From: a virus
Direction: 5' to 3' (one strand)
IMG/VR virus record: IMGVR_UViG_3300045988_180880
Coordinates: 256,001-320,000 of that record
Length of the DNA stretch: 64,000 nucleotides
A program made the translations under genes and the position numbers. Positions 28,336 to 58,876 of the stretch are shown piece by piece. How positions within the stretch are numbered: position 1 is the stretch's first letter; the number at the start of each line of letters is the position of its first letter. Below the pieces are notes generated by a model. That model ran no database searches and was not told the origin of the DNA. It saw only the letters and a list, made by a program, of their open reading frames with translations.

Positions 28336-29148
28336 ATGTACATAAGAAGAAAAGTATTCTCACTATTACAAGACGGTGAGACAGGAGAAGAGAAGTATTT
28401 TTCTACGACCGATGTAACTTTGGATAATCTTGAAGAAAGAATTTTTAGTATTTCAATTCCAACTGAAGAAGAATTAGAACAAAGAGAATTCGGTGCTAGA
28501 CAGAGAAAACAGAATAGAAAACTAGCTAGATCTATTCACAATGCCGAGATGCAAGCAAATAAAGCAGCTAAGGCACAAGAAAAAGCAGCTAAAATAGTTT
28601 CTAATCCAGCTAATTTAGTTGATGAGAAGAAAATGGAAGAAGCTCAGAAACTTACTAAGAAAGCACAAAAAGCAGTTGAGTCTTCTAATCGTAATGCAGG
28701 TCAAGCTTCTCAACAAGTAAAGAATATCTCTAAAACTAGAAAGTCAGTTGCGACAAATCCGGGAGGTCTTGAAATTAAAAATCAAGGTGCAGGAGATATA
28801 ACTGTTAAGAAAGAAGGTGGTAATGTAACTGCTCATAAAATTGCTTCTAAGAAAAGTGGTCAGACAACAACTACTGTAAGAACAACGTCAACTAAGCCTG
28901 ATGTTGTAGTTGATAAGATGACATCCAAAGGTTCTAAGAAAGTTTCTACAGAGGCAGTAAAGAAATCCGCTGAGAAAACTCAAAAAGTTGCAGAAGTAGC
29001 TCAAAAAACAACAAAAGACTCAAAGAAGATTCTGAATGGGGCTAAAAAATTAATGAACACAAAAGCTGGTAAAATAGCTGGAGGAGTTGCTTTAGCTAGT
29101 GGTGCGATGATCGGGGCTAAAAAGTTATATGATCATAAAAAGAAATAA
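28336..29148 (+). CDS. Lys/Ala-rich N-box protein, paralog of 34367 gene
   Basis: MYIRRKVFSLLQD..GEEKYFSTTDVTL is shared with 34367. It has a C-terminal Gly/Ala hydrophobic segment. Confidence 0.55.
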   Translation: MYIRRKVFSLLQDGETGEEKYFSTTDVTLDNLEERIFSISIPTEEELEQREFGARQRKQNRKLARSIHNAEMQANKAAKAQEKAAKIVSNPANLVDEKKMEEAQKLTKKAQKAVESSNRNAGQASQQVKNISKTRKSVATNPGGLEIKNQGAGDITVKKEGGNVTAHKIASKKSGQTTTTVRTTSTKPDVVVDKMTSKGSKKVSTEAVKKSAEKTQKVAEVAQKTTKDSKKILNGAKKLMNTKAGKIAGGVALASGAMIGAKKLYDHKKK

Positions 29149-31451: not shown

Positions 31452-33656
31452 AAAAATCAGAAACAATATTTCAAAAGTTATTTTCAGGAATTAGTTTTGG
31501 AAATTCACGTATACCTTTAATTATGTAGTAGAGGCTTAAGATAGAATAAAATCTTAAGAAAATACCTTAAAATGCTGGAAAATATAAAATATAGATCAGC
31601 ATCTCTATTTATCGATTAAAAATAGAGTTCAACGACTATAGTAGGTACTTAGATAATATAGTCTAAATTTAATAAAATATATTAAAATAAATTGTACGTT
31701 CAAATGTATTTAGTAAAGGTGGGGGAAGAGGGTATTCTGTTATTGGAGGAACTGGAAATGGAAGATTCTTAGATAATGAAAGAAATTCGCCCTTACTTGG
31801 TAATTCACAGCCTTCTTCTAGGTTATCCGGTTATCTTGATAGAATGGCAGAGCTTAGGTCATATTATCTTTTAGATATTACAAAGATGGCTACAAATTTC
31901 TTTTCAGATTATGTAGTTAATTTTATATCTCAAGATACCCAACAAATAGTTTCTGTATTAAATCCTGAAGATTCTACAAATAATGAAGCTGTAACTACTC
32001 GATTAAATGAGATTCTTTTAAAAGATATTAAAATAATTGATTATATACGAGACCATATAAATGACTATGTATTTTATGGAGGTTATTATAGTATGCTTCA
32101 AACTCAAAGAGATGAAAAAGGTCATCTTGTATTTAGAACAGAAGAACTTAATAATCCAAATGCAGTAGTTATAAAGAAGAAAAAGAACGAGGATGGAAAT
32201 ATAGAAGATATATTTTTAGCAATCGGAGATGATGGAAATCTATATGAAATTCCTAGTACTGAGGTAATATATATAAGTAATCCTAAACTTCGACTTACAA
32301 ATGATCTCGAAGAAGGATGGAAAGAAAAGTCTAAACCAGAAAAGCCAAAATTAGGAAGAAATAAGGGATCAGAAAATAGAAATAAAGTTCTTAGGAAAGA
32401 ATCATTTATGGCTTCTGAACCGTTATTTTATTCAAGTATTTTGAAGATAAAAGAATTAGTTATAAAAGAGCTTTTGATATCTCTTATTTCGTTAAGAGAT
32501 CTTTCATCGCCTCAATTATTGGGATTAAATACCGATTAAAATTTGTCGGATTAGATAAATAAAATCTAATGGAACTTTGTAAATTGCTGGAAGATCAAGT
32601 AAAGATAAATCAGCAAAAGATAGTAAAAACTACCTTCTCAACGACTAGATACAAAGAGAGAGTTTATATATAAATTCTTAAAGATATAGTCTAGTTTAAC
32701 TAAATAATTGTTAATATTCGAAAAGTGTCCCTCTAGAGACAATGAACGAATTATGCGCTCGATTACAGAAACTTGCAAACAATACGAATGAGTTGTCTTC
32801 ATTCATCACATCTCAGTTCGATGTCACCTCGTTCATTGAGTCTGCATTAACTCAAAATGTTAAGGTTTTTCCTGACTATAATAGTACCATTACCTCAAGG
32901 ACTTCACTACTCCCACTTGATAAATTAACAGACAAACTTTTAGATCTTATACAGAATCTTGATTATGTAAGAAATAGTGTTCTTTCTCCTCTTGGATTAC
33001 CATCTACTATATTAGATGGAACATCTGGCAGTAAGTGGTTAATAAATTGGCCGTCTAGAGAAGCAATTCTTTAGATAATTAGTAAGTAAATTTGGTGAAA
33101 CTATTAATACTAGTAATACCAAGCCTTAGATTAATCTAATTAAGGTATAACGAATAAAGACTTACCAACTTATAAAAAGTTGAATTTATATTCTAAACTA
33201 TAATAAAAAGATTATAGAGATATCATTGCAGTACTTCAACAGTCAGAAAGAGCTAATTCAAGAGTAACATCATTAATTTCAGGAATAAAAGATTCAATAG
33301 TAAATCTTGTTTGTAGTATTTATAAGGTAATATATAATGAAGATTTAGATCCAAGTTTAGTTCAAATTCATATATTCCAGAAAACAACTGTAGAGTATAA
33401 CAATCAGATAAATGAAGCTGAATCAGTTAGTGGTTTAGTTCAAGGTATCTCTGGAGTTTTATCTAATGCACTCCAAACTTTAGAACAAGCAACTCCATTA
33501 ATTGAACCAGAATCATATTTAAGTTATATTCAAAACTTACTTAAAGATATTGACCCAAGTACAGAATCTCTAATAAATGAAGATACGATTAAGCAGTATA
33601 TAGAATTTCTTAATCAAAAACTTCAGGCACAACGAGAACAGCTTGGACTCAGTTAA
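31448..33656 (+). CDS. portal protein (putative), 4 exons
   Basis: join(31448..31517,31695..32536,32721..33039,33229..33656), about 552 aa. The block LSPLGLPSTILDGTSGSKW-SVLQQSERANSRVTSLISGIK resembles the conserved portal stem/clip region. The ATG overlaps the stop of the upstream endonuclease remnant (ATGA). No homology search was done. Confidence 0.6.
31518..31694 (+). ncRNA. mini group I intron class A (177 nt), portal intron 1
   Basis: P1 CCUU/GAGG, P2 CUUAAGAU/AUCUUAAG, P3 UACCU/AGGUA. Core blocks P AAAUGCUGGAAA, Q GAUCAGCA, R UUCAACGACUA, S UAAUAUAGUC. It ends AAAUUG. Confidence 0.8.
32537..32720 (+). ncRNA. mini group I intron class A (184 nt), portal intron 2
   Basis: P1 CCGAU/GUCGG, P2 AUUAGAU/AUCUAAU, P3 CUUUG/CAAAG. 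Core blocks P AAAUUGCUGGAAG, Q AAUCAGCA, R UCAACGACUAGA, S AAGAUAUAGUC. It ends UAUUCG. Confidence 0.85.
33040..33228 (+). ncRNA. class B mini intron (189 nt, group I-like architecture), portal intron 3
   Basis: Shares AGUAAGUAAAUU, GGUGAAA, UAACGAAUAAAGACUUAC, AAUUUAUAUUCUAAACUAUAAUA and AUUAUAGA with the terL element. Proposed P1 is UGGU/GCCG and P2 is UCUAGAGAA/UUCUUUAGA. It ends CAUUG. Boundaries are tentative. Confidence 0.6.
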
Positions 33657-34366: not shown

Positions 34367-34951
34367 ATGTATATTAGACGTAAAGTATTCTCATTACTAC
34401 AAGATGAGACAGGAGAAGAGAGATACTTCTCTACTACTGATGTAACACTGGAAAATGAGGAAGAGAGAACCTTTAGTGTTGCAGAAGATGCAGAAAGTTT
34501 GGAAGAAAAGGATTTCTCTGATAAAAAAAAAGAGGAAGATGATGAGCCAAAACTTACAACTAGTGATAAGATTAATATTAAGTTGAATAAAGCTCTGATT
34601 ACTAAGAAGGATCGCGAAGCATTTGTTGAAGCTTATGAAGATGGAAAATCTCATAAATACGGAAAACAGGCAGCTAAGTATGCAGCAATTGGTAATGGTA
34701 TAGGTGGCGGTATATTAGGTGCTGCAGTTGGTGGTAAAAAGGGTGCAGCTATTGGAGCCGGAATTGGCGCTGTTTCAGGTGCAGCAGGATCTTATGCTGG
34801 TACTAGAGCAGGTGTTGCACTTAATAAGCTTGCTAGAAAACATAGTGGTAGTCTTGATACTAAAACAAAATTAGCAGTAGATCGAGTAAAAGTAGCAGAT
34901 GGAAAAATGACAAAAGAAGAATTTGCTAAAAAATGGAGATCTAAGAAGTAA
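34367..34951 (+). CDS. N-box glycine-zipper protein, paralog of 28336 gene
   Basis: Starts MYIRRKVFSLLQDETGEERYFSTTDVTL. Contains AAIGNGIGGGILGAAVGGKKGAAIGAGIGAVSGAAGSYAG. Confidence 0.6.
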   Translation: MYIRRKVFSLLQDETGEERYFSTTDVTLENEEERTFSVAEDAESLEEKDFSDKKKEEDDEPKLTTSDKINIKLNKALITKKDREAFVEAYEDGKSHKYGKQAAKYAAIGNGIGGGILGAAVGGKKGAAIGAGIGAVSGAAGSYAGTRAGVALNKLARKHSGSLDTKTKLAVDRVKVADGKMTKEEFAKKWRSKK

Positions 34952-35096: not shown

Positions 35097-35992
35097 ATGA
35101 TAGGAACAGTTAACCCATTTAGTGACCCTGAATTTAAGAAACAAATTTTAGGGAAAGAAGGGAGAGCTGTTGATGACCCGGGAGATTATGAGATTTTGCA
35201 GCCGGAAGAGGATGTATCTAAAAACCTAAAAAATATTATAGGGTCAGCTCCAGTACTCCCTAAAACGGCTCGCAATATTATTATGGATGCTAGTGCTATT
35301 GCGAGTAATCAAAAAGAACAAAAAGCACTAGAATTAACTCATAAATTGAATGAAGTCTTTACTAGTTATAATAAAGAATATAATATAGATCTTCATGTTG
35401 ATTTCGGAAGCCTCTCAAATACTTTAGTTAATGTGGCAGATCCGAAGTCTAGACATATCTTAGAATTATATGTTTCTGAGGTATTTCAAAGTATAAGACC
35501 TATTTTAATTCTCAATATGATTTCTAAACTTTGTCTTTGTATTGATTATATACTCGATCCAATGAGACTCTTTGATAGTTCACAAATGACTTTACAAGAT
35601 TCATTTATTGCCGTTAATATATCTGCGGCTTAGTTGAAATACTAAGAAAATTATACTAAAATGCTGAAAGATAGTTAAAACATAAATCAGCAAAAAGGAT
35701 TACTAATATAAATCCTTTCTCAACGACTAAATGTATAACTAAATTTGAAATATAATTTAGATGATATAGTCTAATTTAATAAAATAAATATTAAAAATAG
35801 ATATGAGAAAAAATTATGCAATTTATTCAACAATTAGAAGATATGAAGAGTCAGATAATTGTTAAAGGTTCTGATCTTGAATTGAAAAAAATTGCAGAAG
35901 AATCTGGAAATGAAGAGTTGAATAGTGAAGAGTCTAAGCAAATAGTAGCAGACTTTATGAGATTATTTCAAAAAGAACATGGAATAGAATAA
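35097..35992 (+). CDS. hypothetical morphogenesis-module protein, 2 exons
   Basis: join(35097..35614,35806..35992). The junction reads ...DSFIAV-EKIMQFIQQLEDMK.... Function unknown. Confidence 0.65.
35615..35805 (+). ncRNA. mini group I intron class A (191 nt)
   Basis: P1 CCGU/GCGG, P2 CUUAG/CUAAG, P3 UAUAC/GUAUA, P6 AGGAUU/AAUCCU. Core blocks P AAAUGCUGAAA, Q AAUCAGCA, R UCAACGACUA, S UGAUAUAGUC. It ends GAUAUG. Confidence 0.8.
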
Positions 35993-38392: not shown

Positions 38393-40490
38393 ATGATTAA
38401 TTTCACAGACCATTTTGATCCCACTAAAAATATAGAAAAAGATTTAGCAAAAGTAGATCTTAGGGATCAATACACATCATTAACAGAAGATGAAAAGATA
38501 ATGGTATTTCTTCGTCTCAAAGGATTTACACACAGACCTCCAACGATAGAAAGATTATATTCTGATGATTATTATTTAGGTAGTCAGGAATTTTTTGATC
38601 ATGGAGATGTAATATTTCCTTTTTGGAAAGATGGATTGAAGAGAATTTTTCCAAATGAAGTTACAACAGCAAAACCATTACTCTGTTTGTCAGGAGCTAT
38701 TGGTATAGGTAAGTCTACGGTATCTAAATTAGCTATGACAAATACACTAGCTAGGTTAAGTTGTATGGCTAATCCGTGGAGAACATTTAAATTAGGTAAA
38801 AAACCACTTAGTTTTATCATCTTTCATAGAGATGAAGATGTAGCAAATGCTGAATTTCGAAGATGGATGCTAGATGATGTATTAAAGCAGAGTCCATTTT
38901 TTAGAAATTTACCACACAGACATAATATAAGAATATTAACTTCTGGTCCTAGGGGTAATGTAGTATAAAAAGTTGCCCTCCATATTAAGAAATTATATGG
39001 TAATAAAGTAAGTAAATTCGGTGAAAGGATAATCCCAATACCGAGTCAAGGATCTTAGATAAATCTAAGTAATCTTTGATGTAACGAATAAAGACTTACT
39101 AACTTATATAATTATATAAGTTAAATTTATATTCTAAACTATAATAGAGTATTATAGAAATAGATTGGCAGGTGGACTAGGAACTGACTTGATTTTTGCA
39201 ATCATGTCTGAGGTCAATTTTTGGCCTAACGAAGAAAAAGCCATGGAACGTGTAAATAGTACGTATATTCGTATTACATCTCGTTTTGATGTAAAAGAAA
39301 GTTTAACATTAGCCGGAAATCTAATAATTGATAGTTCTAGTAGAGGTGCAGGTGGTCCAACTGAAATATTTCTTGAGAATGCAGAACCTCAATTTACTTG
39401 GGATTGTAGACCTTCTCATTATGAAGTTAGAAAAAATCTGTACGAACGTTCAAGGGGAATAACTTTCTCAGTTTATACTGGAGATGGTAAATATCCTCCA
39501 AGAATATTAAATAAAAATGATAAAGAAGAGAACTATAAATTAGAAGATGATCAAGACCCTGATAGAGTGGAACATGTACCTATTCAATTATTTGGAGAAT
39601 TTAAATCTGATTTGATTAAAGCTCTTCAAGATAAATCTGGTATTAATACAGGATCATCAGATAGTTTTTTTGGAGGTACTATAGAACACTTATCTAAATG
39701 TTCAACAATAAAGAATAGAATTCCTGAAATTATTACAGTTGATTTTTATGATAAAGAAGATAGGATTATTAATCATGTAGAAAAAATGATTAATCTTATT
39801 CCAAAAGGTACTCCTATATGGCTAGGTCTTGACTTAGGTGTAGTAGATGATACAACTGGAATAGCAGCAGTTAGTTTTGATCATTGGGAAAATATAAATG
39901 GTACTTTAGTTCCTAAGGTTAAATGTCATTTTGTTTTAGGTGTATCTAGGTTAGAAGGACAAGAGACGAGTTTATTTCACATAGAGCAGTTTATAGAAGA
40001 TCTTAACAAGAAATTTAATATTATAGTTAGTGCTGACCAAGCTTTTTCTAAACAAATACTTCAATATTGTGAAAGAGAAGGAATTAGAAATAATGGGAGA
40101 ATTTCTACAGATAATACTCCTTGTGAACCGGCTCTTTATTTGAAGTATATAATAAACAATGAACTTCTTGAAATTCCTGAATATAAAAGATTACAAAGAG
40201 AGGCATATGATTTAAGATATGTTGGTCCAAAACGTAAAGTAGATCATCCTAAAAAAGCATCAATATCTCCATTATTTGATAATCCTGATGGTTCTAAGCC
40301 AGGAAGCAAGGATTTATGGGATGCTTTAGCTTCTAGTGTTTATTCTTTAAAATTATCTATTGATGAAGGAGAAGAGATGGGATATTCTTCAGGAATAGCT
40401 AAACAACTCGAATCTCTTACTAAAATAACAGCGGATCCAAGAGAAGAGTCACAAAAAGAACTTCAAAACATGTTGGAAAATATATTTTAA
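38393..40490 (+). CDS. terL: terminase large subunit, 2 exons
   Basis: join(38393..38956,39168..40490). Walker A SGAIGIGKST is in exon 1. Walker B LIFAIMSE and the RNase H-like nuclease motif WLGLDLGVVDDTTGIAAVS are in exon 2. The junction reads ILTSGPRG-AGGLGTDLIFAIMSE. Confidence 0.8.
38957..39167 (+). ncRNA. class B mini intron (211 nt, group I-like architecture) in terL
   Basis: P1 GGGGU/GCCCU (U.G at the splice site), P2 CCAUAU/AUAUGG, P3 GUAAGU/ACUUAC, proposed P7 GAAUAAA/UUUAUaUUC, P8 AACUUAUAU/AUAUAAGUU, P9 CUAUAAU/AUUAUAG. It ends GAUUG. Confidence 0.65.
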
Positions 40491-41219: not shown

Positions 41220-41291
41220 TGAACTATAGTATAATTGGCAATACACCAGATTTTGGTTCTGGGATTTCCTGTTCGAGTCAGGATAGTTCAA
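41220..41291 (+). tRNA. trnQ: tRNA-Gln (anticodon TTG)
   Basis: Acceptor TGAACTA/TAGTTCA, D arm GTAT-aattggca-ATAC, anticodon arm CCAGA-ttTTGgt-TCTGG, T arm TCCTG-ttcgagt-CAGGA. Confidence 0.85.
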
Positions 41292-41322: not shown

Positions 41323-41640
41323 ATGTTGAGAGTTAAAAGATTTAGTAAAGTTACTGATAAAGTTAAAGAAATAGGAAAATCTATTGAACATACAGTAACT
41401 CATCCTAAAGAAACTGGTAAGAAGGTGGTGGAGTATGTAAAGAAACACCCAGATGAAGCTATAATTCTTGGGACATCTGATATTGTTCCTGGAGTTGTTG
41501 CTGCCAAACTTGCAAAAGCTGGAAAAACAAAACAAGCAGCTATCGCAGGAACTATTGCAGCACTTCCTATTGGTGGTGCATATGTATCAGGGAAAATAGC
41601 TATTCGAAAATGGAATGAAAAAAGAAAGAAGAATAAATAG
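41323..41640 (+). CDS. small N-box protein with Gly/Ala hydrophobic segment
   Basis: Starts MLRVKRFSKVTD. Contains AAIAGTIAALPIGGAYVSG. Confidence 0.55.
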   Translation: MLRVKRFSKVTDKVKEIGKSIEHTVTHPKETGKKVVEYVKKHPDEAIILGTSDIVPGVVAAKLAKAGKTKQAAIAGTIAALPIGGAYVSGKIAIRKWNEKRKKNK

Positions 41641-41648
41641 AATAGATT

Positions 41649-41721
41649 CGAGATGTAGTTCAGTAGATAGAACGCTTGGTTTGGGACCAAGAAGTCGCAC
41701 GTTTGAGCCGTGTCATCTCGA
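41649..41721 (+). tRNA. trnP: tRNA-Pro (anticodon TGG)
   Basis: Acceptor CGAGATG/CATCTCG, D stem GTTC/GAAC, anticodon arm CTTGG-ttTGGga-CCAAG, T arm GCACG-tttgagc-CGTGT. Confidence 0.85.
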
Positions 41722-41734
41722 CCTAGATAAATAG

Positions 41735-41862
41735 ACGATGAGATATCGTGGAATTACTAACATGAATTATAAACCTTTAGGAAGAGTAAAAGTCGCGAGT
41801 TACTCTTCCACTACTAAGGATGACATGTTAATAATACAAGGATAGTTTGATATCTCGGGAAG
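41735..41862 (+). promoter_or_regulatory. conserved structured leader, copy D
   Basis: ACGATG-AGATATC ... hairpin GGAAGAGTAA/TTACTCTTCC ... GATATCT-CGGGAAG. It ends 16 nt before the ATG. Confidence 0.6.
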
Positions 41863-41878
41863 CTATAAAATTTAATTC

Positions 41879-43327
41879 ATGATAGATACTAAATTATTAC
41901 CAGTACCTTTAGAGTATTCTTGTCCAATAGTAATGAGAGTAAAACTTCCCAGAAGAAATGATAGTGGGAGATTAAACTATTATACGTATGTTCCAGAATT
42001 AGGTACTTGGGTATTAGAAAAGATGAGAAATTCAGTTTTTAAGAAATTACAAAAATTAAATATAACTTTTAGGGACTGGGAAAATAGATGGTTACTTAAA
42101 TTACAACCATCTGATATGTATTCAGAACTTTGGGTAGATAAAATAATAGAAGTTTATTATAAAGATAAATTACCAAATACAAAAAGTTATATAAAAGATC
42201 AATTATTGTTAGATAATGATTATGTATTTACGGGTGTTATGGTTAAAGAGGATTTAATGGATATATTTATTAAATCTCGGGAGGGTAGTTTTATAGACAT
42301 AGTATATAATTATGATTTAGTACCTAAAATAATCGAAAAACTTACAGATGAAATATGTTTACAGTATTTAAATGATAATAATGAATATGAAAAATACTAT
42401 ACTACGTATTCAGATTTTATTTCAAGAGGGCTAAATTGTAGGTATTATGCTGCTAAACTTAGAAAAATAACGCTTAGTAATAAAGAATATCATTCGAGTA
42501 GATTAAAGACAACAGAAGCTTATATTACAGAATCAAAAGCTAAGTTTGGAGAAAATTCCTTTGAATATTTATCTGAATATACTGGAAGAATTGATAAAAT
42601 GACTTTTAAATGTAATAAGTGCGGAACAACTTTTTCGGTTTTAGCAAAAACACATTTAGAAAGTTCTCATGGTGGGTGTCCAGTTTGTAATACTAATTCT
42701 ATAAAAGAAGATAGAAAGTTTTCTAATCAAGACTTTCAAAATAGGTTGGATAATATTTATGGAATTGGAAAGTATAAGTTAATATCTAACTTTATCAATT
42801 GCAAGACTACTGTGGAAATTTTAGATCTTGAAACAAATACTATATTTAAACAAGATCCAGAGAATTTATTATATCATGGACTTACAGATCCTAGTACTGT
42901 TACTAAATCAAAGGGAGAACGATTAGTAGAGCTTTGGATTAATAAAAATTCAGATAAAATATTGGATTATAAGTGGAATACTAAAGTAAGTGGAATAGAG
43001 GGCAGGTGTAGAGATTATGTTATGATTGATTTTATTATTAACTATGGTGGGAAAACCATATGGATTGAATATAATGGAATTCAGCATTATACATATTTTT
43101 CACTATATCACAAATATGATAAAAATCTTTTTGATGACCAAAAAAGAAGAGATGAAAATGTAAGAATTTATTGCAAACAGAATAATATAATGTTGGTAGA
43201 AATTCCTTACACTATAAGTTCTTTTAAAAGAGTTTCTGAATTTTTAAATAAAGTAGTTTTTGAAAATATTGATCCAAGTACTTTAGTAGATTATAATCTT
43301 TTATATGAAACTACAAAAGGAAAATAA
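41879..43327 (+). CDS. freestanding homing endonuclease: zinc ribbon + Vsr/DUF559-like PD-(D/E)xK domain
   Basis: FKCNKCGTTF...GGCPVCN, then VMIDFIINYGGKTIWIEYNGIQHY...RRDENVRIYCKQNNIMLVEIPY (D...E.NG.QH...R.D...K pattern). Confidence 0.65.
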   Translation: MIDTKLLPVPLEYSCPIVMRVKLPRRNDSGRLNYYTYVPELGTWVLEKMRNSVFKKLQKLNITFRDWENRWLLKLQPSDMYSELWVDKIIEVYYKDKLPNTKSYIKDQLLLDNDYVFTGVMVKEDLMDIFIKSREGSFIDIVYNYDLVPKIIEKLTDEICLQYLNDNNEYEKYYTTYSDFISRGLNCRYYAAKLRKITLSNKEYHSSRLKTTEAYITESKAKFGENSFEYLSEYTGRIDKMTFKCNKCGTTFSVLAKTHLESSHGGCPVCNTNSIKEDRKFSNQDFQNRLDNIYGIGKYKLISNFINCKTTVEILDLETNTIFKQDPENLLYHGLTDPSTVTKSKGERLVELWINKNSDKILDYKWNTKVSGIEGRCRDYVMIDFIINYGGKTIWIEYNGIQHYTYFSLYHKYDKNLFDDQKRRDENVRIYCKQNNIMLVEIPYTISSFKRVSEFLNKVVFENIDPSTLVDYNLLYETTKGK

Positions 43328-43347
43328 TATAAAATTTAAATTGAAAT

Positions 43348-45137
43348 ATGAAATTTATTGCAAAATTGTTTTCGACAATGCTACCTGCATCTGACAGTAG
43401 TATGATACCTCGAGATGTTGCGGAATCTTTCTTTAGTAGCCAAGAGTTTAAACAAGCCTTAGAGGATAGAAAGCTCTTTGGAACATTAACACACTTAGCC
43501 AGAAATCTATCATCTGCCAAAAATGGTGGTCCTGCAGTATCTAAGACTATAGGGAAAGATGATCTCCTTTATTGCTAATAATGAGAGGCATAGATAAAAA
43601 GTTTATGAAAATGTTTTTAATTGCTGGAAAAAATAATAAATTAAATCAGCAAAAATAGATAATAAAATCTATTTCTCAACGACTAGAGTAAACACTAAGA
43701 ATACCGATTAATTCTTAGATAATATAGTCTATTATTGATTTTAAAATCAATTAGGTTAAGTTATTAATTGGCGAAAGTTCACCTACACATGTGTTAACTA
43801 AAGTTTGGTTCGAAAATGACGGCTGGTGCTATGGGGAGTTTGAGGTTCTCTCCGAAGATGGCCTAGACGATGAAGCTATACAAAGAATCAGAAGAGTAAA
43901 GGGCCTTCTTAAAAATGGTTGCAAAATTGGAATTTCCTGTGTCGTTCTTTAATTAACTGAGACTTAAGAAATTCATAAGTTCTTAAGAAAATTTCATAAA
44001 ATGCTGGAAAGGTTAGAATCAAATCAGCATCATCTAGCAGATAGCGAGATGTTCAACGACTAAAGATGGAACCTAGATTTTTAGGATAATATAGTCTAAA
44101 TTTAATAGCAAGCAATATATTAAAAAAAATTGGGATATTGGGAAAATTCTAGCGGAAGTGACTATTTAAAGCGTATGGTTGCGCTAAAAGGGGCTGACCT
44201 TACATTAAACCCTTCTTGGAAAAATGCGGGTATAGTTTCAATTGATGGTTCTGAGAGCGAAAAAACATTCTCTGAACTTGATATAGAGTATGATCCTGAA
44301 GCTTATAAGGATACAAAAATAAAAGTTAAGCAATTTTCTAACTTCGATTCGGGAGATTTATTAAAGTCTTCTAAGATTAATGGAAAGTTTACGCAATTAA
44401 AAGCTAAATCATTTTCATTTAATTCTGAAATAAATTCAATAGAAGATACTATCGTTAGTGAATCTGTAATAGAAGAACCTATTCAAAAAGATTTCTCAGT
44501 TGCTACAGTTAAAGAGAGAGTTAGAATTGGAAAGATGTCCCCTCGCCAAAGATTTCGTCTACTTGTTTTAGAATATAAGCAAGCAGTAAAACAAGCTGGT
44601 GGTTCTGAAAAGATGGATCCAGAAACACTTAAAATCATGAAGTCTTTGTTTACTACAGATCTTTTGGATATTATGAAGTCGATTACACCAGAAATCATGA
44701 ATGGAAAAAATCCAGGAACATTACTTGGTGCTTCTAGTTTAGGTAAGAATGTACGTAAATAATATGCGTTTTTTATATGAATTGCTGGAAATATCTAAAT
44801 GAGATAAATCAGCATCAAATCATACTTAGATAAATCTAAAGAAGTGATTTGTTCAACGACTATGTATATAAACTGTCAAAATAGACAGAAGATATAGTCT
44901 AAATTATAAATAAATTTTATAAATACATTGATAAGTGTACAAAAATTGTTCTTACCATATAAGATGGCTATGTCTGAGGTATCTAAAACTAATGCAATAT
45001 CTAAGGCAAGATATCAAAAAATTCAAGCTGCTTATTCTGACTTTGTTAATGCAATGTTAGAGGAAATATTCGCGCCAAAGAATGGTACGAAGAAAGAAGA
45101 GCCAGTAGAAGAAGAAAACCCTGAAGAAAACAGTTAA
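43348..45137 (+). CDS. prohead protease (HK97/S78-like) with C-terminal scaffold-like extension, 4 exons
   Basis: join(43348..43573,43771..43949,44133..44756,44931..45137). LFGTLTHLARN lies in exon 1. GLLKNGCKIGISCVVL-GYWENS spans the exon 2/3 junction and resembles the Ser-containing ..G.S.G. block. The family call is by eye only. Confidence 0.55.
43574..43770 (+). ncRNA. mini group I intron class A (about 197 nt), protease intron 1
   Basis: P3 UGUUU/AAACA. Core blocks P UAAUUGCUGGAAA, Q AAUCAGCA, R UCAACGACUAGA, S UAAUAUAGUC. P9 is AUUGAUUUU/AAAAUCAAU and it ends UAAUUG. The 5' boundary is ambiguous: P1 is either UUUAUU/GAUAAA (used here) or CUUU/GAGG ending at 43570. Confidence 0.7.
43950..44132 (+). 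ncRNA. mini group I intron class A (183 nt), protease intron 2
   Basis: P1 UCUU/GAGA, P2 CUUAAGAA/UUCUUAAG, P3 UUUCAU/AUGGAA. Core blocks P AAAUGCUGGAAA, Q AAUCAGCA, R UUCAACGACUA, S UAAUAUAGUC. It ends AAAUUG. Confidence 0.85.
44757..44930 (+). ncRNA. mini group I intron class A, P2-less (174 nt), protease intron 3
   Basis: P1 ACGU/GCGU, P3 UAUAU/AUAUA. Core blocks P GAAUUGCUGGAAA, Q AAUCAGCA, R UUCAACGACUA, S AAGAUAUAGUC. It ends ACAUUG. Confidence 0.85.
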
Positions 45138-45143
45138 AAGATT

Positions 45144-46037
45144 ATGAAAGTAGAAAGACGTAAATTATTCTCTTCTTCGATTTCTCCACGGCGCAAGTTA
45201 TTTTCAGGTGGAGTAACTCAGGCAGAATATAAGAAAATTCAGTGTAGAGATTGTGGTTATATTATGGATACTTTAGCCACTACAACTAACTTCTTATGTC
45301 CTAAATGTGGAGCTGTAAATAGATTTAATGTTTTAGAAGTTACACCAAGTCCTGAAAATACTCCTGAAGCTGTACAAGTCGAAGTATCAAAAATTGAAGA
45401 AGTAGAAAAAGGATTCTCAAGACGTTCGTTATTCGGCGGAGATAATAATGCCGCTGTACAAAAAGAATTTTCAGAACCGTCGAACGAATTTGAGGTAAAA
45501 TTAAAAGAATTTTCTGGCAAAACTTTAAATGAATCAGAAGTTGTTAAGGCATTTGGTATTTCCGCCGAAGATTTAGTTGAAAAAGGTTTTGCTAGTATTG
45601 ATGAAGATAATAAAGTTACTATTCCTGAAACTGCATTCTTACAATCTAAATTATTCTCTAAGTTAATCGTATCAGTGACTAAGATTTTGGATTTAGACCC
45701 AATAGAAGGACCTAAGGAAGACATAATTAATATGTTAGAATCTAAAGGATCTTTAGGACCGAAAGGTATAATGCTAATTAAAAAAGCTCATTCTCTTCCA
45801 CTTGAAGAAATGAAAGAAGTTGAGTTCTCTAGCACTGAAGAAGTAGAGGATTGGATTAAAGATTCTGGAATTATTGGAGACTTAAAGATAGAGTTTGGTA
45901 ATTCTGCAATGGGAATTAAAGAATTTACAAAGATCCTAGAAGAGAGATATGATGATGCTCCAGATAATATAATAGATATATTAATTGATCGTGGAGTAAT
46001 CAAAATTCAAGGAAATCAAGTTGATATAATGAAATAA
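45144..46037 (+). CDS. N-box zinc-ribbon protein with repeated K-x-F-S motifs (scaffold-like?)
   Basis: Starts MKVERRKLFSSSISPRRKLFSGG. Contains CRDCGY...CPKCG. Internal motifs: KGFSRRSLFGG, KEFSEP, KEFSGK, KLFSKL, VEFSST. Confidence 0.55.
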   Translation: MKVERRKLFSSSISPRRKLFSGGVTQAEYKKIQCRDCGYIMDTLATTTNFLCPKCGAVNRFNVLEVTPSPENTPEAVQVEVSKIEEVEKGFSRRSLFGGDNNAAVQKEFSEPSNEFEVKLKEFSGKTLNESEVVKAFGISAEDLVEKGFASIDEDNKVTIPETAFLQSKLFSKLIVSVTKILDLDPIEGPKEDIINMLESKGSLGPKGIMLIKKAHSLPLEEMKEVEFSSTEEVEDWIKDSGIIGDLKIEFGNSAMGIKEFTKILEERYDDAPDNIIDILIDRGVIKIQGNQVDIMK

Positions 46038-46056
46038 AATATTTATAAAACTCAGT

Positions 46057-48414
46057 ATGAAAAATACAAGATTTATGGAAGTCCTATTCTCAGCTGTAGA
46101 GGATAAGGATGAAGAATTAGCAAAGCAAGTAGCCAAAGATATTGAAGATGCTAAGGCTAATGGCTCTGTTGATACTGAAGAAGTAAAATATGAAAATATC
46201 GGTGACGGTAAAGTTTCAGTAACAGACAAAGAAAATGGCGAAGTTACTATCGTTGAAAAGGCTTCCGATGAGGACGATACTTATGATATGTATCCAGCTG
46301 AACAATCTGAACAAATCGAGGGATATCTTCATCCGGAAGGGGATGGAGTAACTCCGGGTAATCAGGTAGGTGCAGTTGACGAGGAAGTTGAAAGTCATAT
46401 GGATGGTAGTGCTGTTATTGCACCGAATCTTCCTGATGGTGGTTTAAATCCAGCAGCTGGTCATGAAGAAAGTGTAGAAATTACTGCACAAGAAGGTCCT
46501 GAAGCTGTAGAAGAATGCGAAGAAAAAGAATTCTCTGTAAGTACTGATAATAGCGTAGTTCTTAGAATTTTCTCAGATCAAGAATTTTGTGAAAGATTAT
46601 TCTCAGAAGTTATTGAATCAGAAGAAACAGCTAAAGTAGGTGATCTTAAAGTAGAGAAAACTGGTGAAAATGAAGTAGTTGTTACATCAGAATCTACAGG
46701 TGATCAAGCAAAGGTAGAGTTTAATGGTGAAGATATGGATGTTACTGAGCTAGAATCTAAGAATTTTAGTGAAGCAGAACAGTTTGATCCGTTGTTTGTA
46801 GTAGGAGTAGATCCAGTAAATCATGTTATTGTAGATGCTCCAGAGTATGACGAAGCATCAGCTCAAGAATTAGTTCAGAGTTTAACAGAAAAAGGAGTAG
46901 CAGGAGTTAGAATTTTTGATAACCCCGAAGACGCTCGTGAATATGCTATCGATCTCTTGAATGGTCTTGGTGTAGTTGAAGATGAACAACTTGGAGAACC
47001 TGAACAAGCAGAATTTTCAGATCATACTATTTACTTAACTGAATTCCAAGCTGATAATACAGACTTTATGTGTCGTTTCTTCTCTGAATCTGTAGATAGT
47101 ATTAGTGCAACTCAGGATGCTATTGAAGATGCTATTGAAAATGGTGATGAGATTGAAACAGATTCTGAAGTTATTACACCTATCGATTCTAAGACTGCAG
47201 TTATACAGGATAAAAATAAAGATGAATTTACTAAAGTTAGTTTAGAAGGTGAAGAAATGGAGCTTGAAAAGATAAGCGAAGATCAAGCAGAAGAGTTGAC
47301 AGATCATATCGTTGTTTCTGAAGAAGAGGAAGACGAAGATGAGGAAGAAGAAAAAGAATTCTCTGATGTTTGGTGTGACGAAGCAGAAACTAAATTTTTC
47401 TCAGAAAATGAAGAACTTACTCAGTATATGATTCGTTTGTTCTCTGAAGAGGCTGATTCTGCTGAAATTGAAAGCGCAATCCAAACTGGCGAACAAGTAG
47501 AAACAGATAAAGAAATTATTACGCCTATCGATTCTAAGACTGCAGTTATACAGGATAAAGAAAATGGCGAATTTACTAAAGCTGAGATGGATGAAGAAGT
47601 TCTTGATGTTAATCCTATCTCAGAAGCAGAAGCCGATAATCTAACAAACAGTATTGCAGTAGAAGATAAAGTTGAAAATCATGAAGAAAAAGAATTTTCT
47701 GAAGATATCTACTGTAATGAGGCAGAAACTAAATTCTTCTCTGAAGGTGAGGAATTTACTGAATATATGGTTCGTCTATTCTCTGAAGAAGATGGTCATT
47801 GTCCAGTAGAAAAAGCTATTGAAACTGGTAAGAAAGTAGAAACAGATAAAGAAATCATTACTCCAATTTCAGCTACAGAAGCAATTATAGAAGATAAGGA
47901 AAATGGTGAATTTACTAAGGCTACTATGAGTGAAGATGATATTGAATGTCATCCATTATCAGAAGAAGAAGCTGACAAACTTGAAGAACATTCTATTGAT
48001 AAAGAAGAAAAGAAATTCTCAGGAGATTATGAAGATCCTATTCTTAATAAATTCTTCTCAGATGTTGTAGGTGCAGTTCCTGTTCCTGCTGGAGAAGTAG
48101 ATCCTAATACTCCTGTAATTCCTTTAGCTGATCCTAATGCTGTAGCTCCTCAGGAAGTAGCAGTTCCGGCAGGTGTTGCTCCTGCACAAGGTGGTGCTAC
48201 TAGTGTTGAAGCTATTGAAGATAAAGCACTTCAGGCAGTTCAAAGTATCCAAGCAGTAGCAGAAGAAGCAGCTCAGCAAATTATGGAAGCAAAACAAGCT
48301 CCTGCACAGGCTCAAGAACAAGATCTTCAGGAAGCTCAGTTCTCAGAAAAGAAATTCAGTGATACAAATGATACTCTAGTATCATGGTTGACTGGAAATA
48401 GTTTTCGTAAGTAA
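46057..48414 (+). CDS. highly acidic repeat protein (scaffold or decoration candidate)
   Basis: 785 aa, D/E-rich. Contains three ~113-115-aa tandem repeats and 17 [KRE]-x-F-S motifs. Confidence 0.6.
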   Translation: MKNTRFMEVLFSAVEDKDEELAKQVAKDIEDAKANGSVDTEEVKYENIGDGKVSVTDKENGEVTIVEKASDEDDTYDMYPAEQSEQIEGYLHPEGDGVTPGNQVGAVDEEVESHMDGSAVIAPNLPDGGLNPAAGHEESVEITAQEGPEAVEECEEKEFSVSTDNSVVLRIFSDQEFCERLFSEVIESEETAKVGDLKVEKTGENEVVVTSESTGDQAKVEFNGEDMDVTELESKNFSEAEQFDPLFVVGVDPVNHVIVDAPEYDEASAQELVQSLTEKGVAGVRIFDNPEDAREYAIDLLNGLGVVEDEQLGEPEQAEFSDHTIYLTEFQADNTDFMCRFFSESVDSISATQDAIEDAIENGDEIETDSEVITPIDSKTAVIQDKNKDEFTKVSLEGEEMELEKISEDQAEELTDHIVVSEEEEDEDEEEEKEFSDVWCDEAETKFFSENEELTQYMIRLFSEEADSAEIESAIQTGEQVETDKEIITPIDSKTAVIQDKENGEFTKAEMDEEVLDVNPISEAEADNLTNSIAVEDKVENHEEKEFSEDIYCNEAETKFFSEGEEFTEYMVRLFSEEDGHCPVEKAIETGKKVETDKEIITPISATEAIIEDKENGEFTKATMSEDDIECHPLSEEEADKLEEHSIDKEEKKFSGDYEDPILNKFFSDVVGAVPVPAGEVDPNTPVIPLADPNAVAPQEVAVPAGVAPAQGGATSVEAIEDKALQAVQSIQAVAEEAAQQIMEAKQAPAQAQEQDLQEAQFSEKKFSDTNDTLVSWLTGNSFRK
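47000..48010 (+). repeat. three tandem ~339-345-nt coding repeats
   Basis: ATTAC(A/G)CCTATCGATTCTAAGACTGCAGTTATACAGGATAAA occurs at 47173 and 47518; a diverged copy lies at 47857. Each unit starts GAAAAAGAATT(C/T)TCT (EKEFS). Confidence 0.8.
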
Positions 48415-48496: not shown

Positions 48497-49945
48497 ATGA
48501 ATACACAGTATTTGCAAATGATGCAGACTCCTTCAATGATGGAGGCTCTTATTAATAGCTCAGTATCAGCAGAAGATGCTAACCTTCGTTCTCGTGAATA
48601 TGCTAAGATGTTCTCTCGTAACGATGAAATGAAAGATTTGTTTGGTCTAGGTAATGCAGGTAATTTGCTGCAGAAGACTTTCTCTGGTTATGCAGAAACT
48701 CCGTTGCTGTCTACTCAGTATTTCAATGCTTCTGTAGCTTCTTATGTAAGCTCATTCGCAGGTTATATGTCTATCGAACGTGACTTTGATCAGCCTAATG
48801 GTTTGTTCTATTGGTTCGACGTTTTGGGTGTAACTGATATGCGTTCTGTTATTCCTAACTTAGGTCCGGATAACTATCAGGATATTCAAGCTATGGGTAA
48901 CTTTACTTTGAATATTACTCCGACTACTAATGCTGACTACTCTTCTTTGATTGGTCGTAAGATTATCCCTGGTACAGTACGTGTTAAGATTGCTACTGCA
49001 ACTGAAAAATTCGAATTGATCGATAATGGTCAGGGTGCTTTCATGGCTGTTGCTGGTAAGATTTCTAACGGTACTATCAACTATTTGAATGGTCGTGTAG
49101 AATTTACTTTGGCTACTGCTTTGGCTGGTGATGCTGCTACTGAATCAATCACTATTGTAGGTAAGGAAGATGTTACTGGTACTCCTTGTAATACTATTGG
49201 TGCTTCTAATGCACATGCTAATGATAAGAGATTTATCGCTAAGATGCAACAGCTTGGTTTGGCTACTGTACCTGATATGTTGGTAGCTGAATATAACATT
49301 GCTGCTTTAGGTGCTATGAAGAAAGCAACTGGTTCTGATATGGCTACTTTCTTGTTCACTAAGCTTCGTGAATTGTATACTAAGGTAATTAACTATAAAT
49401 TGGTTTCTACTTTGGAAGAAGGTTATAATGGTAACGTTATGGCTGACTTGGATTTGACTCAGGGTGCTATGACTGGTCAGTTCATGGATTATCGTTCTAG
49501 AGTTGACTTGTTCGATGCTTACTTGATTAATGTTGAAAGTGCATTGGCAACTAAAGCTGTTAAGGGTGTTGATGTTACTGCCTATGTAGCTGGTAATATG
49601 GCATCTAATCAATTCCAGAAGGGTGGAATGATTGGTAAATGGGAACGTAATACTAAGATGACTTATATCAATGACCTGTTGGGTTGGTATAATGGTATTC
49701 CTGTACTTCGTTCTACTGATATTGCTGAAGCTCCGGGTGAAGGTACTTTCTATGCAATTCACAAAACAAAAGATGGTCAGATGGCTCCGCTTGCACGTGG
49801 TATCTATATGCCTTTGACTGATACTCCGACTATTGGTAACTACAATAACCCAACTCAGATGGCTTCTGGTATCTACTATCAGGAAGGTACTAAGTATATG
49901 GCTCCTGAATTGGTACAGAAGGTTACTTTCAAATTCGGTATCTAA
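48497..49945 (+). CDS. major capsid protein (putative)
   Basis: 482-aa ORF just downstream of the protease/scaffold genes. It has visibly higher GC and a distinct codon choice (CGT, CTG, GGT, GCT), and strong hairpins follow it. No homology search was done. Confidence 0.6.
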   Translation: MNTQYLQMMQTPSMMEALINSSVSAEDANLRSREYAKMFSRNDEMKDLFGLGNAGNLLQKTFSGYAETPLLSTQYFNASVASYVSSFAGYMSIERDFDQPNGLFYWFDVLGVTDMRSVIPNLGPDNYQDIQAMGNFTLNITPTTNADYSSLIGRKIIPGTVRVKIATATEKFELIDNGQGAFMAVAGKISNGTINYLNGRVEFTLATALAGDAATESITIVGKEDVTGTPCNTIGASNAHANDKRFIAKMQQLGLATVPDMLVAEYNIAALGAMKKATGSDMATFLFTKLRELYTKVINYKLVSTLEEGYNGNVMADLDLTQGAMTGQFMDYRSRVDLFDAYLINVESALATKAVKGVDVTAYVAGNMASNQFQKGGMIGKWERNTKMTYINDLLGWYNGIPVLRSTDIAEAPGEGTFYAIHKTKDGQMAPLARGIYMPLTDTPTIGNYNNPTQMASGIYYQEGTKYMAPELVQKVTFKFGI

Positions 49946-58816: not shown

Positions 58817-58826
58817 TAAATAACAT

Positions 58827-58858
58827 GATAGTATGCTGGAGAGATCTGGCATACTATC
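58827..58858 (+). terminator. strong hairpin after the last sheath exon
   Basis: GATAGTATGC-tggagagatctg-GCATACTATC. Confidence 0.6.
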
Positions 58859-58876
58859 CTTTATAAATAATAGAAT

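What the first reader, a model, noticed from the sequence alone, without database searches (positions are those of the whole stretch)
43348..45137. Prohead-protease-like gene carries three introns, one next to the putative catalytic-Ser block
Four exons (226, 179, 624 and 207 nt) are separated by class A introns of about 197, 183 and 174 nt. The exon 2/3 junction joins ...NGCKIGISCVVL to GYWENSSGS.... That places the intron beside the block resembling the Ser-containing active-site strand of HK97-type proteases. Group I introns typically sit in the most conserved codons of essential genes. The intron 1 5' boundary is ambiguous: 43573 gives ...LLYC-ESSP and 43570 gives ...LLC-ESSP. The 3' half of the gene encodes K-x-F-S-rich, charged sequence resembling a fused scaffold.
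Basis: partly seen in the sequence, partly recalled or inferred. Interest (0 to 1): 0.7.

Follow-up and report, generated by a model that had tools for sequence, protein, structure and literature searches.

The report
Three self-splicing introns split phage protease gene

Summary
Window 43348-45137 (+) is one gene cut by three ORF-less group I introns. Near-identical contigs that lack one, two or all three insertions fix the boundaries: introns 43570-43760 (191 nt), 43950-44132 (183 nt) and 44757-44930 (174 nt). The exons are 222, 189, 624 and 207 nt, and the product is 413 aa. Each intron follows a U that forms a U.G pair in P1, ends in G, and has P1-P9. Across 47 distinct relatives, 96% of cells pair (35-42% when partners are slid) and 44 of 48 pairs show compensatory changes. 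The protein has no Pfam, PHROG or PDB sequence hit. Its N-terminal domain folds like T4 gp21 prohead protease. Invariant H49, S133 and D159 align with gp21 H85, S140 and D168. Intron 2 lies four codons after S133. The window is very probably a "Jug" jumbo gut phage. A 2025/2026 paper reports about 2500 such introns in that group and says the prohead protease gene is fragmented, so the phenomenon is known. Possible additions are a free-standing HNH endonuclease gene that co-occurs with intron 1, and a strongly enriched [KR]-x-F-S motif that may mark head-protein targeting or cleavage.

The parts
43348..43569 (+). Exon 1 (222 nt, residues 1-74). It contains the catalytic His49 codon (43492-43494) and the conserved GKDD motif.
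   Evidence: Start Met and sequence match full-length homologues. The 3' end is fixed by intron-less allele L001.
43570..43760 (+). Intron 1, group I, 191 nt, no ORF. P1 pairs 43566-43569 (CCUU) with 43585-43588 (GAGG), including the U43569.G43585 wobble. P7 pairs 43681-43685 with 43725-43729. The terminal G is 43760. An in-frame stop lies 2 codons into the intron.
43761..43949 (+). Exon 2 (189 nt, residues 75-137). It contains the catalytic Ser133 codon (43935-43937).
43950..44132 (+). Intron 2, group I, 183 nt, no ORF. P1 pairs 43946-43949 (UCUU) with 43959-43962 (GAGA). P7 pairs 44058-44062 with 44092-44096. The terminal G is 44132. The first intron codon is an in-frame TAA.
   Evidence: It is precisely absent from L004, L006 and L001. 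Hand-drawn structure is checked, and the MFE fold recovers P2, P4-P9.
44133..44756 (+). Exon 3 (624 nt, residues 138-345). It holds the Asp159 codon (44196-44198). Residues 178-258 (44253-44495) form a disordered linker carrying four conserved K-x-F-S motifs. The C-terminal helical domain starts here.
44757..44930 (+). Intron 3, group I, 174 nt, no ORF and no P2. P1 pairs 44753-44756 (ACGU) with 44766-44769 (GCGU). P7 pairs 44858-44862 with 44895-44899. The terminal G is 44930. An in-frame TAA is the second intron codon.
   Evidence: It is precisely absent from L005, L006 and L001. See, and 90 (fold z-score -3.3).
44931..45137 (+). Exon 4 (207 nt including the stop, residues 346-413). It holds the end of the helical domain and an acidic tail.
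41879..43327 (+). Free-standing HNH-type homing endonuclease gene (482 aa) immediately upstream. It is part of a 1.6-kb insertion (41723-43343) that is absent from intron-less alleles.
   Evidence: PHROG 559 HNH endonuclease, E 5.5e-28. Insertion relative to L001 is shown. Co-occurrence with intron 1 across 33 loci is shown.
45144..48414 (+). Two downstream genes (297 aa, and 785 aa acidic) carrying 6 and 14 [KR]-x-F-S motifs. They are candidate scaffold or internal head proteins and protease substrates.
   Evidence: motif positions are conserved in orthologues
48497..49945 (+). Probable major capsid protein (482 aa), with K-x-F-S at residues 37 and 60.
   Evidence: The best BFVD match is an annotated major capsid protein (E 5.4e-19, 24% identity). 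The model is low-confidence (pLDDT 50), so this is tentative.

Best explanation
The region is a single head-morphogenesis gene of a jumbo gut phage, very probably a 'Jug' phage of Bacteroides/Phocaeicola. It encodes a 413-aa protein with three parts: an N-terminal T4-gp21-type serine prohead protease domain (catalytic H49, S133, D159), a disordered linker, and a C-terminal helical domain that is probably scaffold-like or prohead-targeting.

The gene is interrupted at three phase-0 positions by small (174-191 nt) ORF-less group I introns of one family. After transcription each intron folds into the P1-P9 ribozyme core. An exogenous guanosine attacks after the U of the U.G pair in P1. The freed 5' exon then attacks after the terminal G. 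The exons are ligated and the reading frame is restored.

In-frame stop codons within the first three intron codons would halt ribosomes on unspliced RNA.

The introns are mobile or recently mobile. Close relatives carry every combination from none to all three. Spread is most likely driven in trans by a free-standing HNH endonuclease gene inserted just upstream ('collaborative homing').

Shown: the precise insertions, the RNA structure with covariation, the fold and the conserved triad. Inferred: actual self-splicing, proteolytic activity, and the endonuclease-intron partnership.
For: Boundaries and polymorphism:
- blastn against intron-less and partly intron-less alleles fixes all three boundaries.
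- Distribution across IMG/VR loci is 0, 1, 2 or 3 introns.

RNA structure:
- All three introns share the group I core.
- The model from intron 2 recovers introns 1 and 3 end to end.
- On 47 distinct homologues, 96.4% of cells pair, against 35-42% for slid partners.
- 44 of 48 pairs show compensatory changes.
- The last P1 pair is U.G in 33 of 43 sequences.
- P7, which was not in the model, is 99% paired.
- MFE folds independently recover most helices.

Protein:
- More than 240 homologues exist, mostly uninterrupted ORFs of 405-430 aa, and they read across the junctions.
- AF2 pLDDT is 87-94 for most of residues 1-160, dipping to 77-78 for 51-70.
- Foldseek matches T4 gp21 5JBL and many annotated prohead proteases and protease-scaffold fusions.
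- hhalign against a gp21-family profile gives E 4.9e-4, with H, S and D aligned and invariant.

Context:
- The downstream gene is a probable MCP.

Homing endonuclease:
- It is absent from intron-less loci and present, or a remnant is present, in every intron-1 locus.

Literature:
- The Jug phage paper reports 2513 group I introns (mean about 206 nt). Splicing of 37 of 76 was confirmed by RNA reads. It says the prohead protease gene is fragmented (PMC12880540).
Against: - None of the three introns reaches the Rfam gathering score: 28, 24 and 17 bits against 50.
- Thermodynamic z-scores are modest: -2.0, -0.8 and -3.3.
- The covariation alignment was fitted to the model, which favours the structure.
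- No sequence-profile library recognises the protein.
- hhalign probability to the gp21 family is only 32%.
- No RNA data for this locus were available to me.
- The endonuclease-intron association rests on loci that are phylogenetically non-independent.
- Assignment to the Jug clade is indirect. It rests on size, GC, habitat of related contigs, and split genes. The relevant supplementary tables were truncated.
Confidence: 0.87

Rival explanations
1. The gene is broken (a pseudogene or a gene in pieces). The insertions are repeated non-intron elements that are not removed from the RNA. The ORF pieces are either non-functional or translated separately.
For: Gene callers in public data call the pieces as separate ORFs (P0008-P0011). 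Rfam does not call the insertions at its gathering score.
Against: Exons 2 to 4 have no proper starts. The exon sequence is intact and identical, or nearly so, across many contigs with different intron combinations. The insertions are excisable to the nucleotide and restore a conserved ORF. They show the full group I architecture with covariation. The catalytic Ser and His would fall on different fragments.
Confidence: 0.03
2. The introns are real, but the protein is a scaffold or core protein with a protease-like fold that no longer cleaves. The true maturation protease would be encoded elsewhere.
For: There is no Pfam or PHROG protease hit. The hhalign probability is low. SPN3US carries a second, diverged protease-like paralogue (PMC5694885).
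Against: H49, S133 and D159 are invariant in 64 homologues that are 46-86% identical to the window's protein. They align with the gp21 triad positions. No second copy was seen among the window's ORFs, although only 64 kb was available.
Confidence: 0.08
3. The introns are group I-derived but not autonomous ribozymes. Because of their minimal size and AT-richness they would need a phage or host protein, such as an RNA chaperone or maturase, to splice.
For: They are very small (174-191 nt), with a 3-5 bp P5 and no P5abc or other peripheral stabilisers. GC is 23-28%. Fold stability is weak.
Against: All core helices and the conserved junction sequences are present. The Jug paper's metatranscriptome reads show that splicing occurs in vivo for this intron class. 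That evidence does not separate self-splicing from assisted splicing.
Confidence: 0.25

Closest known systems
Group I introns of 'Jug' jumbo gut phages (PMC12880540, Sci Adv 2026; preprint PMC12363816)
   Same: They are small (about 206 nt on average) ORF-less group I introns that fragment essential genes of 360-402 kb, roughly 30% GC gut phages. That paper states that the prohead protease and portal genes are fragmented, and that stand-alone HNH genes are abundant. Contigs related to the window are 362-378 kb from human gut, and two of them are in that paper's huge-phage catalogue.
   Different: I could not see the paper's tables, so I do not know whether this gene's three sites are listed. 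Intron density here is at least 11 model hits at E<0.01 in 64 kb. That is well above the published mean of 18.5 per genome.
Staphylococcus phage Twort orf142 (Landthaler & Shub 1999, PNAS 96:7005; cited in PMC11878797)
   Same: It is a single late structural gene carrying three self-splicing group I introns.
   Different: Twort orf142 encodes a tail tube protein. Its introns are larger (about 250 nt, from memory). Exon skipping was shown experimentally there; here it is only a possibility.
T4 gp21 prohead protease (PDB 5JBL; Pfam PF03420) and protease-scaffold fusions such as Tenacibaculum phage PTm1 'prohead core scaffolding protein and protease'
   Same: The fold is shared, and the His, Ser and Asp positions align with gp21 H85, S140 and D168. 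The motifs GxLxHxxR and G[IV]S are also shared. A C-terminal extension follows the protease domain, and the gene lies in the head module.
   Different: There is no detectable match to the Pfam model. About 30 residues are inserted between the His and the core strands. T4, phiKZ and SPN3US proteases cleave after Glu at (L/I/A/S/G)-x-E. The recurrent motif in the presumed substrates here is [KR]-x-F-S.
[quoted passage not shown]
   Same: An ORF-less intron lies in a conserved gene with a free-standing endonuclease gene next to it. Alleles without the intron also lack the endonuclease gene.
   Different: The cleavage specificity of this HNH enzyme is untested. Three introns share one neighbouring endonuclease gene. 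A second, distantly related endonuclease (31-37% identity) occupies the same position in the divergent allele, which has a different intron set.

Membership tests
Group I intron | Conserved catalytic core with paired regions P3-P8 (P4-P6 and P3-P7-P8 domains, P3/P7 pseudoknot) | tested here: met
   All helices were placed in each of the three introns. On 47 distinct homologues 96.4% of cells pair and 44 of 48 pairs show compensatory change. Slid controls give 35-42%.
Group I intron | 5' splice site follows a U that forms a U.G wobble at the end of P1 with an internal guide sequence | tested here: met
   The wobble pairs are U43569.G43585, U43949.G43959 and U44756.G44766. The pair is U.G in 33 of 43 homologues.
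Group I intron | Intron ends in G (omega-G) | tested here: met
   G43760, G44132 and G44930 are the last bases removed relative to intron-less alleles.
Group I intron | Match to Rfam RF00028 at or above the gathering score | tested here: not met
   Scores are 28.0, 24.2 and 17.3 bits against a gathering score of 50 (E 1.2e-4, 1.6e-3, 0.19). The generic model fits these minimal AT-rich introns poorly.
Group I intron | Guanosine-initiated self-splicing with exon ligation | not testable with these tools
   The only indirect evidence is metatranscriptome support for 37 of 76 introns of this class in Jug phages.
T4 gp21-type prohead serine protease (Pfam PF03420; structurally related to HK97 S78 and the herpesvirus assemblin fold) | Significant match to the family's sequence profile | tested here: not met
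   No Pfam, PHROG or PDB sequence hit was found for the protein or for any of 64 homologues. hhalign against a gp21-family alignment gives E 4.9e-4 but a probability of only 32%.
T4 gp21-type prohead serine protease (Pfam PF03420; structurally related to HK97 S78 and the herpesvirus assemblin fold) | Assemblin/gp21 fold | tested here: met
   Foldseek's only significant PDB hit is 5JBL (prob 1.00, E 3.8e-4, TM 0.63 on the target, 161 columns). There are 26 BFVD hits with E<1e-3, many annotated as prohead protease.
T4 gp21-type prohead serine protease (Pfam PF03420; structurally related to HK97 S78 and the herpesvirus assemblin fold) | Catalytic His, Ser and Asp conserved at the equivalent positions | tested here: met
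   H49, S133 and D159 are invariant in 64 sequences. They align with gp21 H85, S140 and D168. That gp21 has a His-Ser-Asp triad comes from PMC5694885. The gp21 residue numbers come from my own count and memory.
T4 gp21-type prohead serine protease (Pfam PF03420; structurally related to HK97 S78 and the herpesvirus assemblin fold) | Encoded in the head-morphogenesis module next to scaffold and major capsid genes | tested here: inconclusive
   The downstream 482-aa ORF best matches annotated major capsid proteins (E 5.4e-19), but from a low-confidence model. The intervening acidic proteins have no annotation.
T4 gp21-type prohead serine protease (Pfam PF03420; structurally related to HK97 S78 and the herpesvirus assemblin fold) | Proteolytic processing of head proteins | not testable with these tools
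   This needs expression and mutagenesis, or virion mass spectrometry.
Collaborative homing unit (free-standing homing endonuclease plus ORF-less intron) | Endonuclease gene adjacent to the intron-bearing gene and absent from intron-less alleles | tested here: met
   The 1.6-kb insertion carrying the HNH gene is absent from L001-L003 and L102, which have no introns. It or its remnant is present in all loci with intron 1.
Collaborative homing unit (free-standing homing endonuclease plus ORF-less intron) | Endonuclease cleaves the intron-less insertion site and is blocked by the intron | not testable with these tools
   This needs a cleavage assay on the L001-type allele.

The most novel reading that the evidence does not exclude
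The recurrent [KR]-x-F-S motif may be the recognition signal of this protease family, for cleavage, prohead targeting, or both.

It occurs in two settings:
- As an N-terminal tag at residues 4-7 of at least 9 proteins in the window, including a GNAT acetyltransferase and the protease itself.
- In clusters (often E-E-K-x-F-S-E/D) in the protease linker, in the two acidic downstream proteins, and near the N-terminus of the probable capsid protein.

If so, this gp21-fold protease has a specificity unrelated to the Glu-specific T4, phiKZ and SPN3US enzymes. The motif would let the packaged or processed proteome of Jug phages be read directly from sequence.

Separately, all four exons are multiples of 3 nt. 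Exon skipping of the Twort kind would therefore give in-frame variants. One example is a Ser133-less form if exon 2 is skipped.
Probability: 0.45. Interest if true: 0.6.

Novelty: already known. Interest (0 to 1): 0.3.

Why it matters
As a phenomenon it adds little. Group I introns that split essential genes of these gut jumbo phages, including the prohead protease, have been published. Three introns in one phage gene has a 1999 precedent.

Its practical value is for annotation:
- Standard tools miss both the introns (below the Rfam gathering score) and the protein (no Pfam or PHROG hit).
- Public gene calls for this locus are therefore fragments.
- The exact junctions, the catalytic triad and a covariance model give a clean gene model.

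The side observations could make head maturation and intron mobility in an abundant, uncultured human-gut phage experimentally approachable. These are the endonuclease-intron co-occurrence and the [KR]-x-F-S signal.

Tried and rejected
- Rfam at the gathering score found only tRNAs.
- Megablast and tblastn against GenBank phages (INPHARED) found no match.
- Pfam, PHROG, NCBIfam and PDB sequence searches of the spliced protein, its homologues and its neighbours gave nothing useful. The exception was the HNH endonuclease, plus a weak terminase hit.
- I tried to enumerate splice sites from open reading frames plus P1 pairing alone. It was not discriminating, with tens of candidates per intron. 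Boundaries were taken from intron-less alleles instead.
- A published Jug-targeting CRISPR spacer is not in this window. That is uninformative, because the window covers about one sixth of a genome.
- The supplementary tables that would list Jug genomes and annotations were not held or were truncated. Clade assignment therefore stays indirect.
- The AF2 model of the probable capsid protein was poor (pLDDT 50). Its Foldseek result is only suggestive.
- A literature search for the gp21 catalytic residue numbers did not return the primary papers.
- I considered and rejected inteins, because the insertions carry in-frame stops and no ORF.
- I considered and rejected stop-codon recoding, because the conserved ribozyme core and the precise deletions in relatives explain the stops.
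Full report
**What is in the sequence.** The window is about 30% GC and carries nine tRNA genes. Between 43348 and 45137 the + strand holds four ORF pieces separated by three non-coding stretches. The three stretches align with each other. They share the blocks AATTGCTGGAAA, AAATCAGCA, TCAACGACTA and ATATAGTCTA. Rfam's group I model hits all three, but below its gathering score: 28.0, 24.2 and 17.3 bits against 50. The exact core CAACGACTA occurs ten times in the window.

**Checking the junctions.** This returned more than 240 homologues. Most are uninterrupted ORFs of 405-430 aa, on metagenomic contigs up to 385 kb, and none has a Pfam domain.
- In the alignment, junction 2 (SCVVL|GYWEN) and junction 3 (GKNVR|ISVQKLF) match the uninterrupted proteins residue for residue.
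- Junction 1 does not.
- Several shorter hits were natural intron-minus variants. P0010 runs across junction 2 and stops where intron 3 starts. P0009 starts at exon 3 and runs across junction 3.

I fetched their contigs and compared DNA.
- L001 has no introns and is 94-95% identical in exons 1 and 2. It joins window 43569/70 to 43761, and 43949 to 44133.
- L004 is 100% identical across exon 2 (96% from exon 3 onward). It lacks exactly 43950-44132.
- L005 is 98% identical. It lacks exactly 44757-44930.

With the rule that the exon ends in U and the intron in G, the result is:
- Introns: 43570-43760 (191 nt), 43950-44132 (183 nt), 44757-44930 (174 nt).
- Exons: 222, 189, 624 and 207 nt, all multiples of three.
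- Product: 413 aa.

The other two introns are exact.

**Are they group I introns?** I drew a P1-P9 structure for intron 2 by hand. The MFE fold independently recovers P2, P4, P5, P6, P7, P8 and P9. A covariance model built from that one sequence found intron 1 (E 2.9e-6) and intron 3 (E 3.3e-4) end to end, with the splice sites in register. It found at least eight further copies in the window at E<0.01. Projected onto the three introns, every helix forms, except that intron 3 has no P2. Each 5' splice site is a U.G wobble: U43569.G43585, U43949.G43959 and U44756.G44766.

I also scanned IMG/VR for the core motif and searched those loci with the model. This gave 63 matches, 47 of them distinct.
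- 96.4% of cells form standard pairs, against 35-42% when the 3' partners are slid by 1-3 columns.
- 44 of 48 pairs show compensatory changes.
- The last P1 pair is U.G in 33 of 43 sequences.
- P7 was not part of the model, yet it is 99% paired.

The alignment was fitted to the model, which inflates pairing somewhat. The size of the effect and the slid controls still leave little doubt. Thermodynamic z-scores alone are modest, at -2.0, -0.8 and -3.3. In-frame stops lie within the first three intron codons in all three introns. This is a feature commonly noted for group I introns in protein-coding genes (PMC3984707).

**What the gene encodes.** Pfam, PHROGs and PDB sequence searches find nothing. 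That holds for the single protein, for a 64-sequence profile, and for each homologue scanned alone.

An AlphaFold model from the 64-sequence alignment shows three regions:
- Residues 1-175 are mostly confident: pLDDT about 87-94 over most of 1-160, dipping to 77-78 for 51-70 and falling after about 160.
- Residues 178-258 are disordered.
- Residues 259-392 are a confident helical domain.

Foldseek's only significant PDB match is the T4 capsid assembly protease gp21 (5JBL; prob 1.00, E 3.8e-4, TM 0.63 normalised to the target). In BFVD, 26 matches have E<1e-3. Many are named prohead protease, Peptidase U9, or 'prohead core scaffolding protein and protease'. Some align over about 400-570 columns, though with large rmsd, which hints that the two-domain architecture is shared.

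hhalign of my alignment against T4 gp21, and against a 22-member gp21-family alignment, gives the same register. E is 4.9e-4 and probability is 32%.
- GTLTH49LAR aligns with GELNH85PPR.
- GIS133 aligns with GVS140.
- GAD159 aligns with GVD168.

All three residues are invariant in 64 homologues. PMC5694885 states that gp21-type proteases use a His-Ser-Asp triad.

Intron 2 therefore lies four codons after the catalytic Ser. Intron 1 lies two codons after the invariant GKDD motif. Intron 3 lies directly after invariant R345 in the C-terminal domain. Measured over +-5 residues, the three sites rank at the 48th, 83rd and 89th percentile of conservation within the gene. This is a tendency, not 'the most conserved codons'.

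The ORF two genes downstream (48497-49945) best matches annotated major capsid proteins (E 5.4e-19), but from a poor model. A head-module context is likely but not proven.

**Mobility.** Searching IMG/VR for the gene gave 32 loci. tblastn and the RNA model show these combinations:
- No intron: L102.
- Intron 1 only: L103.
- Introns 1 and 2: L104-106 and L112-114.
- Introns 1 and 3: L107-111.
- All three: L115 and L116.
- In a divergent allele (about 46% identical by tblastn): a variant intron at the same site 2, plus an intron at site 3 with the same model score and length as the window's intron 3, and no intron 1 (L117-133).

The ORF upstream of the gene (41879-43327) is an HNH-type homing endonuclease (PHROG 559, E 5.5e-28). 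Relative to L001, the 1.6 kb that carries it is an insertion. Across loci, the pattern is as follows:
- The endonuclease gene is absent from all intron-less alleles.
- It is present in every allele with intron 1, either intact or as a 40+49-codon remnant.
- In the divergent allele it is replaced by a different endonuclease with 31-37% identity.

This is the arrangement described as collaborative homing, but the loci are not independent samples and cleavage is untested.

The window's gene is also mosaic. Exons 1 and 2 are 94-95% identical to L001, but exon 3 is only 77% identical. The last 116 or so residues are identical to the otherwise 60%-identical P0012. This fits recombination or co-conversion around intron 3.

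**Comparison with what is known.** A 2025 preprint, published in Sci Adv in 2026, describes 'Jug' jumbo gut phages: 360-402 kb, about 30% GC, infecting Bacteroides/Phocaeicola. It reports:
- 2513 group I introns in 136 of 139 genomes, with a mean length of about 206 nt.
- Many stand-alone HNH genes.
- Split terL, nrdD and DNA polymerase genes.
- RNA-read confirmation of splicing for 37 of 76 introns.
- An explicit statement that the portal and prohead protease genes are fragmented and/or divergent.

The window's relatives are 362-378 kb human-gut contigs. Two of them are listed in that paper's huge-phage catalogue. The window also has an intron hit just upstream of its weak terminase ORF. I could not confirm membership from the truncated tables, but I rate it as very probable.

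Three group I introns in one phage structural gene has a precedent in Twort orf142, a tail tube protein. The finding is therefore real and correctly interpreted in the main, but not new.

**What may be new.** [KR]-x-F-S occurs 48 times in the window's ORFs of 90 aa or more, against 7.4 expected from shuffling. It appears in two settings:
- As an N-terminal tag at residues 4-7 of at least nine proteins, including the protease itself and a GNAT acetyltransferase.
- In clusters: the protease linker (residues 181, 203, 229, 256), the 297-aa protein (6) and the 785-aa acidic protein (14) downstream, and residues 37 and 60 of the probable capsid protein.

Motif positions are conserved in diverged orthologues. 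By analogy with T4's capsid-targeting sequence and gp21 cleavage sites, this may be the targeting or cleavage signal of this protease. Its specificity would then be unlike the Glu-specific sites of T4, phiKZ and SPN3US. This is inference only.

Noticed in passing
window 7581-7711(-), 31512-31697, 32532-32656, 33035-33184, 35609-35806, 39005-39099, 57923-58013, 58328-58450, 58585-58668, possibly 63453-63593: At least eight further copies of the same small group I intron family lie outside the protease gene. With the three in the gene, that is at least 11 hits at E<0.01 in 64 kb. None reaches the Rfam gathering score. This density is well above the published mean of 18.5 per Jug genome, so published counts may be low or introns may cluster in this region.
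   Followed up: partly
window 55902-60175 (+): This looks like another gene with three introns. ORF 55902-57914 (670 aa) and ORF 58877-60175 (432 aa) are separated by three intron cores at about 57.9, 58.4 and 58.6 kb. The product was not identified, and there was no Pfam or PHROG hit for the first piece.
   Followed up: no
window 38393-40490 (+): An intron hit at 39005-39099 lies just upstream of ORF 39165-40490, which gives a weak large-terminase PHROG hit. This fits the split terL reported for Jug phages.
   Followed up: no
window-wide; strongest at 45144-48414, 44253-44495, 28336-29148 and 34367-34951: The [KR]-x-F-S motif occurs 48 times against 7.4 expected. It is an N-terminal tag at residues 4-7 of at least 9 ORFs: 19514-20212(-), 28336, 29691, 34367, 37389 (GNAT acetyltransferase), 41323, 45144, 62568, and the protease. 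It also forms internal clusters, often EEKxFS[ED]. Positions are conserved in orthologues in L001, L102 and L118.
   Followed up: partly
window 41723-43343; loci L103-L133: The free-standing HNH endonuclease gene is itself an insertion polymorphism. It is absent from L001-3 and L102, intact in most intron-1 loci, and reduced to a remnant of about 90 codons in L107-L110. In L117-L133 a 31-37%-identical endonuclease occupies the same place.
   Followed up: yes
window 44600-45137 compared with P0012 and L118: The gene is mosaic. The N-terminal half is closest to the P0001 and L001 alleles (94-95% nt identity). The last 116 or so residues flanking intron 3 are identical to the otherwise 60%-identical P0012 allele. 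The site-3 intron of L118 gives the same model score (26.2 bits) and length as the window's intron 3. This suggests recombination or co-conversion around the intron.
   Followed up: partly
L050 1496-1654; L053 730-895: Some family members in related contigs span only about 159-166 nt of model match including 9 exon bases, which implies introns of about 150-157 nt. If functional, that would be unusually small for a group I intron.
   Followed up: no
window 41220-41291 and 41649-41721: Two tRNA genes flank a 105-aa ORF (41323-41640) that begins with the RVKRFS tag. This block is 99-100% conserved in relatives whose protease alleles differ strongly.
   Followed up: no
window 43348-45137: All three introns are in phase 0 and all four exons are multiples of 3 nt. 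Any exon-skipped mRNA would therefore stay in frame. Skipping exon 2 would remove Ser133 (and corrected coordinates).
   Followed up: no
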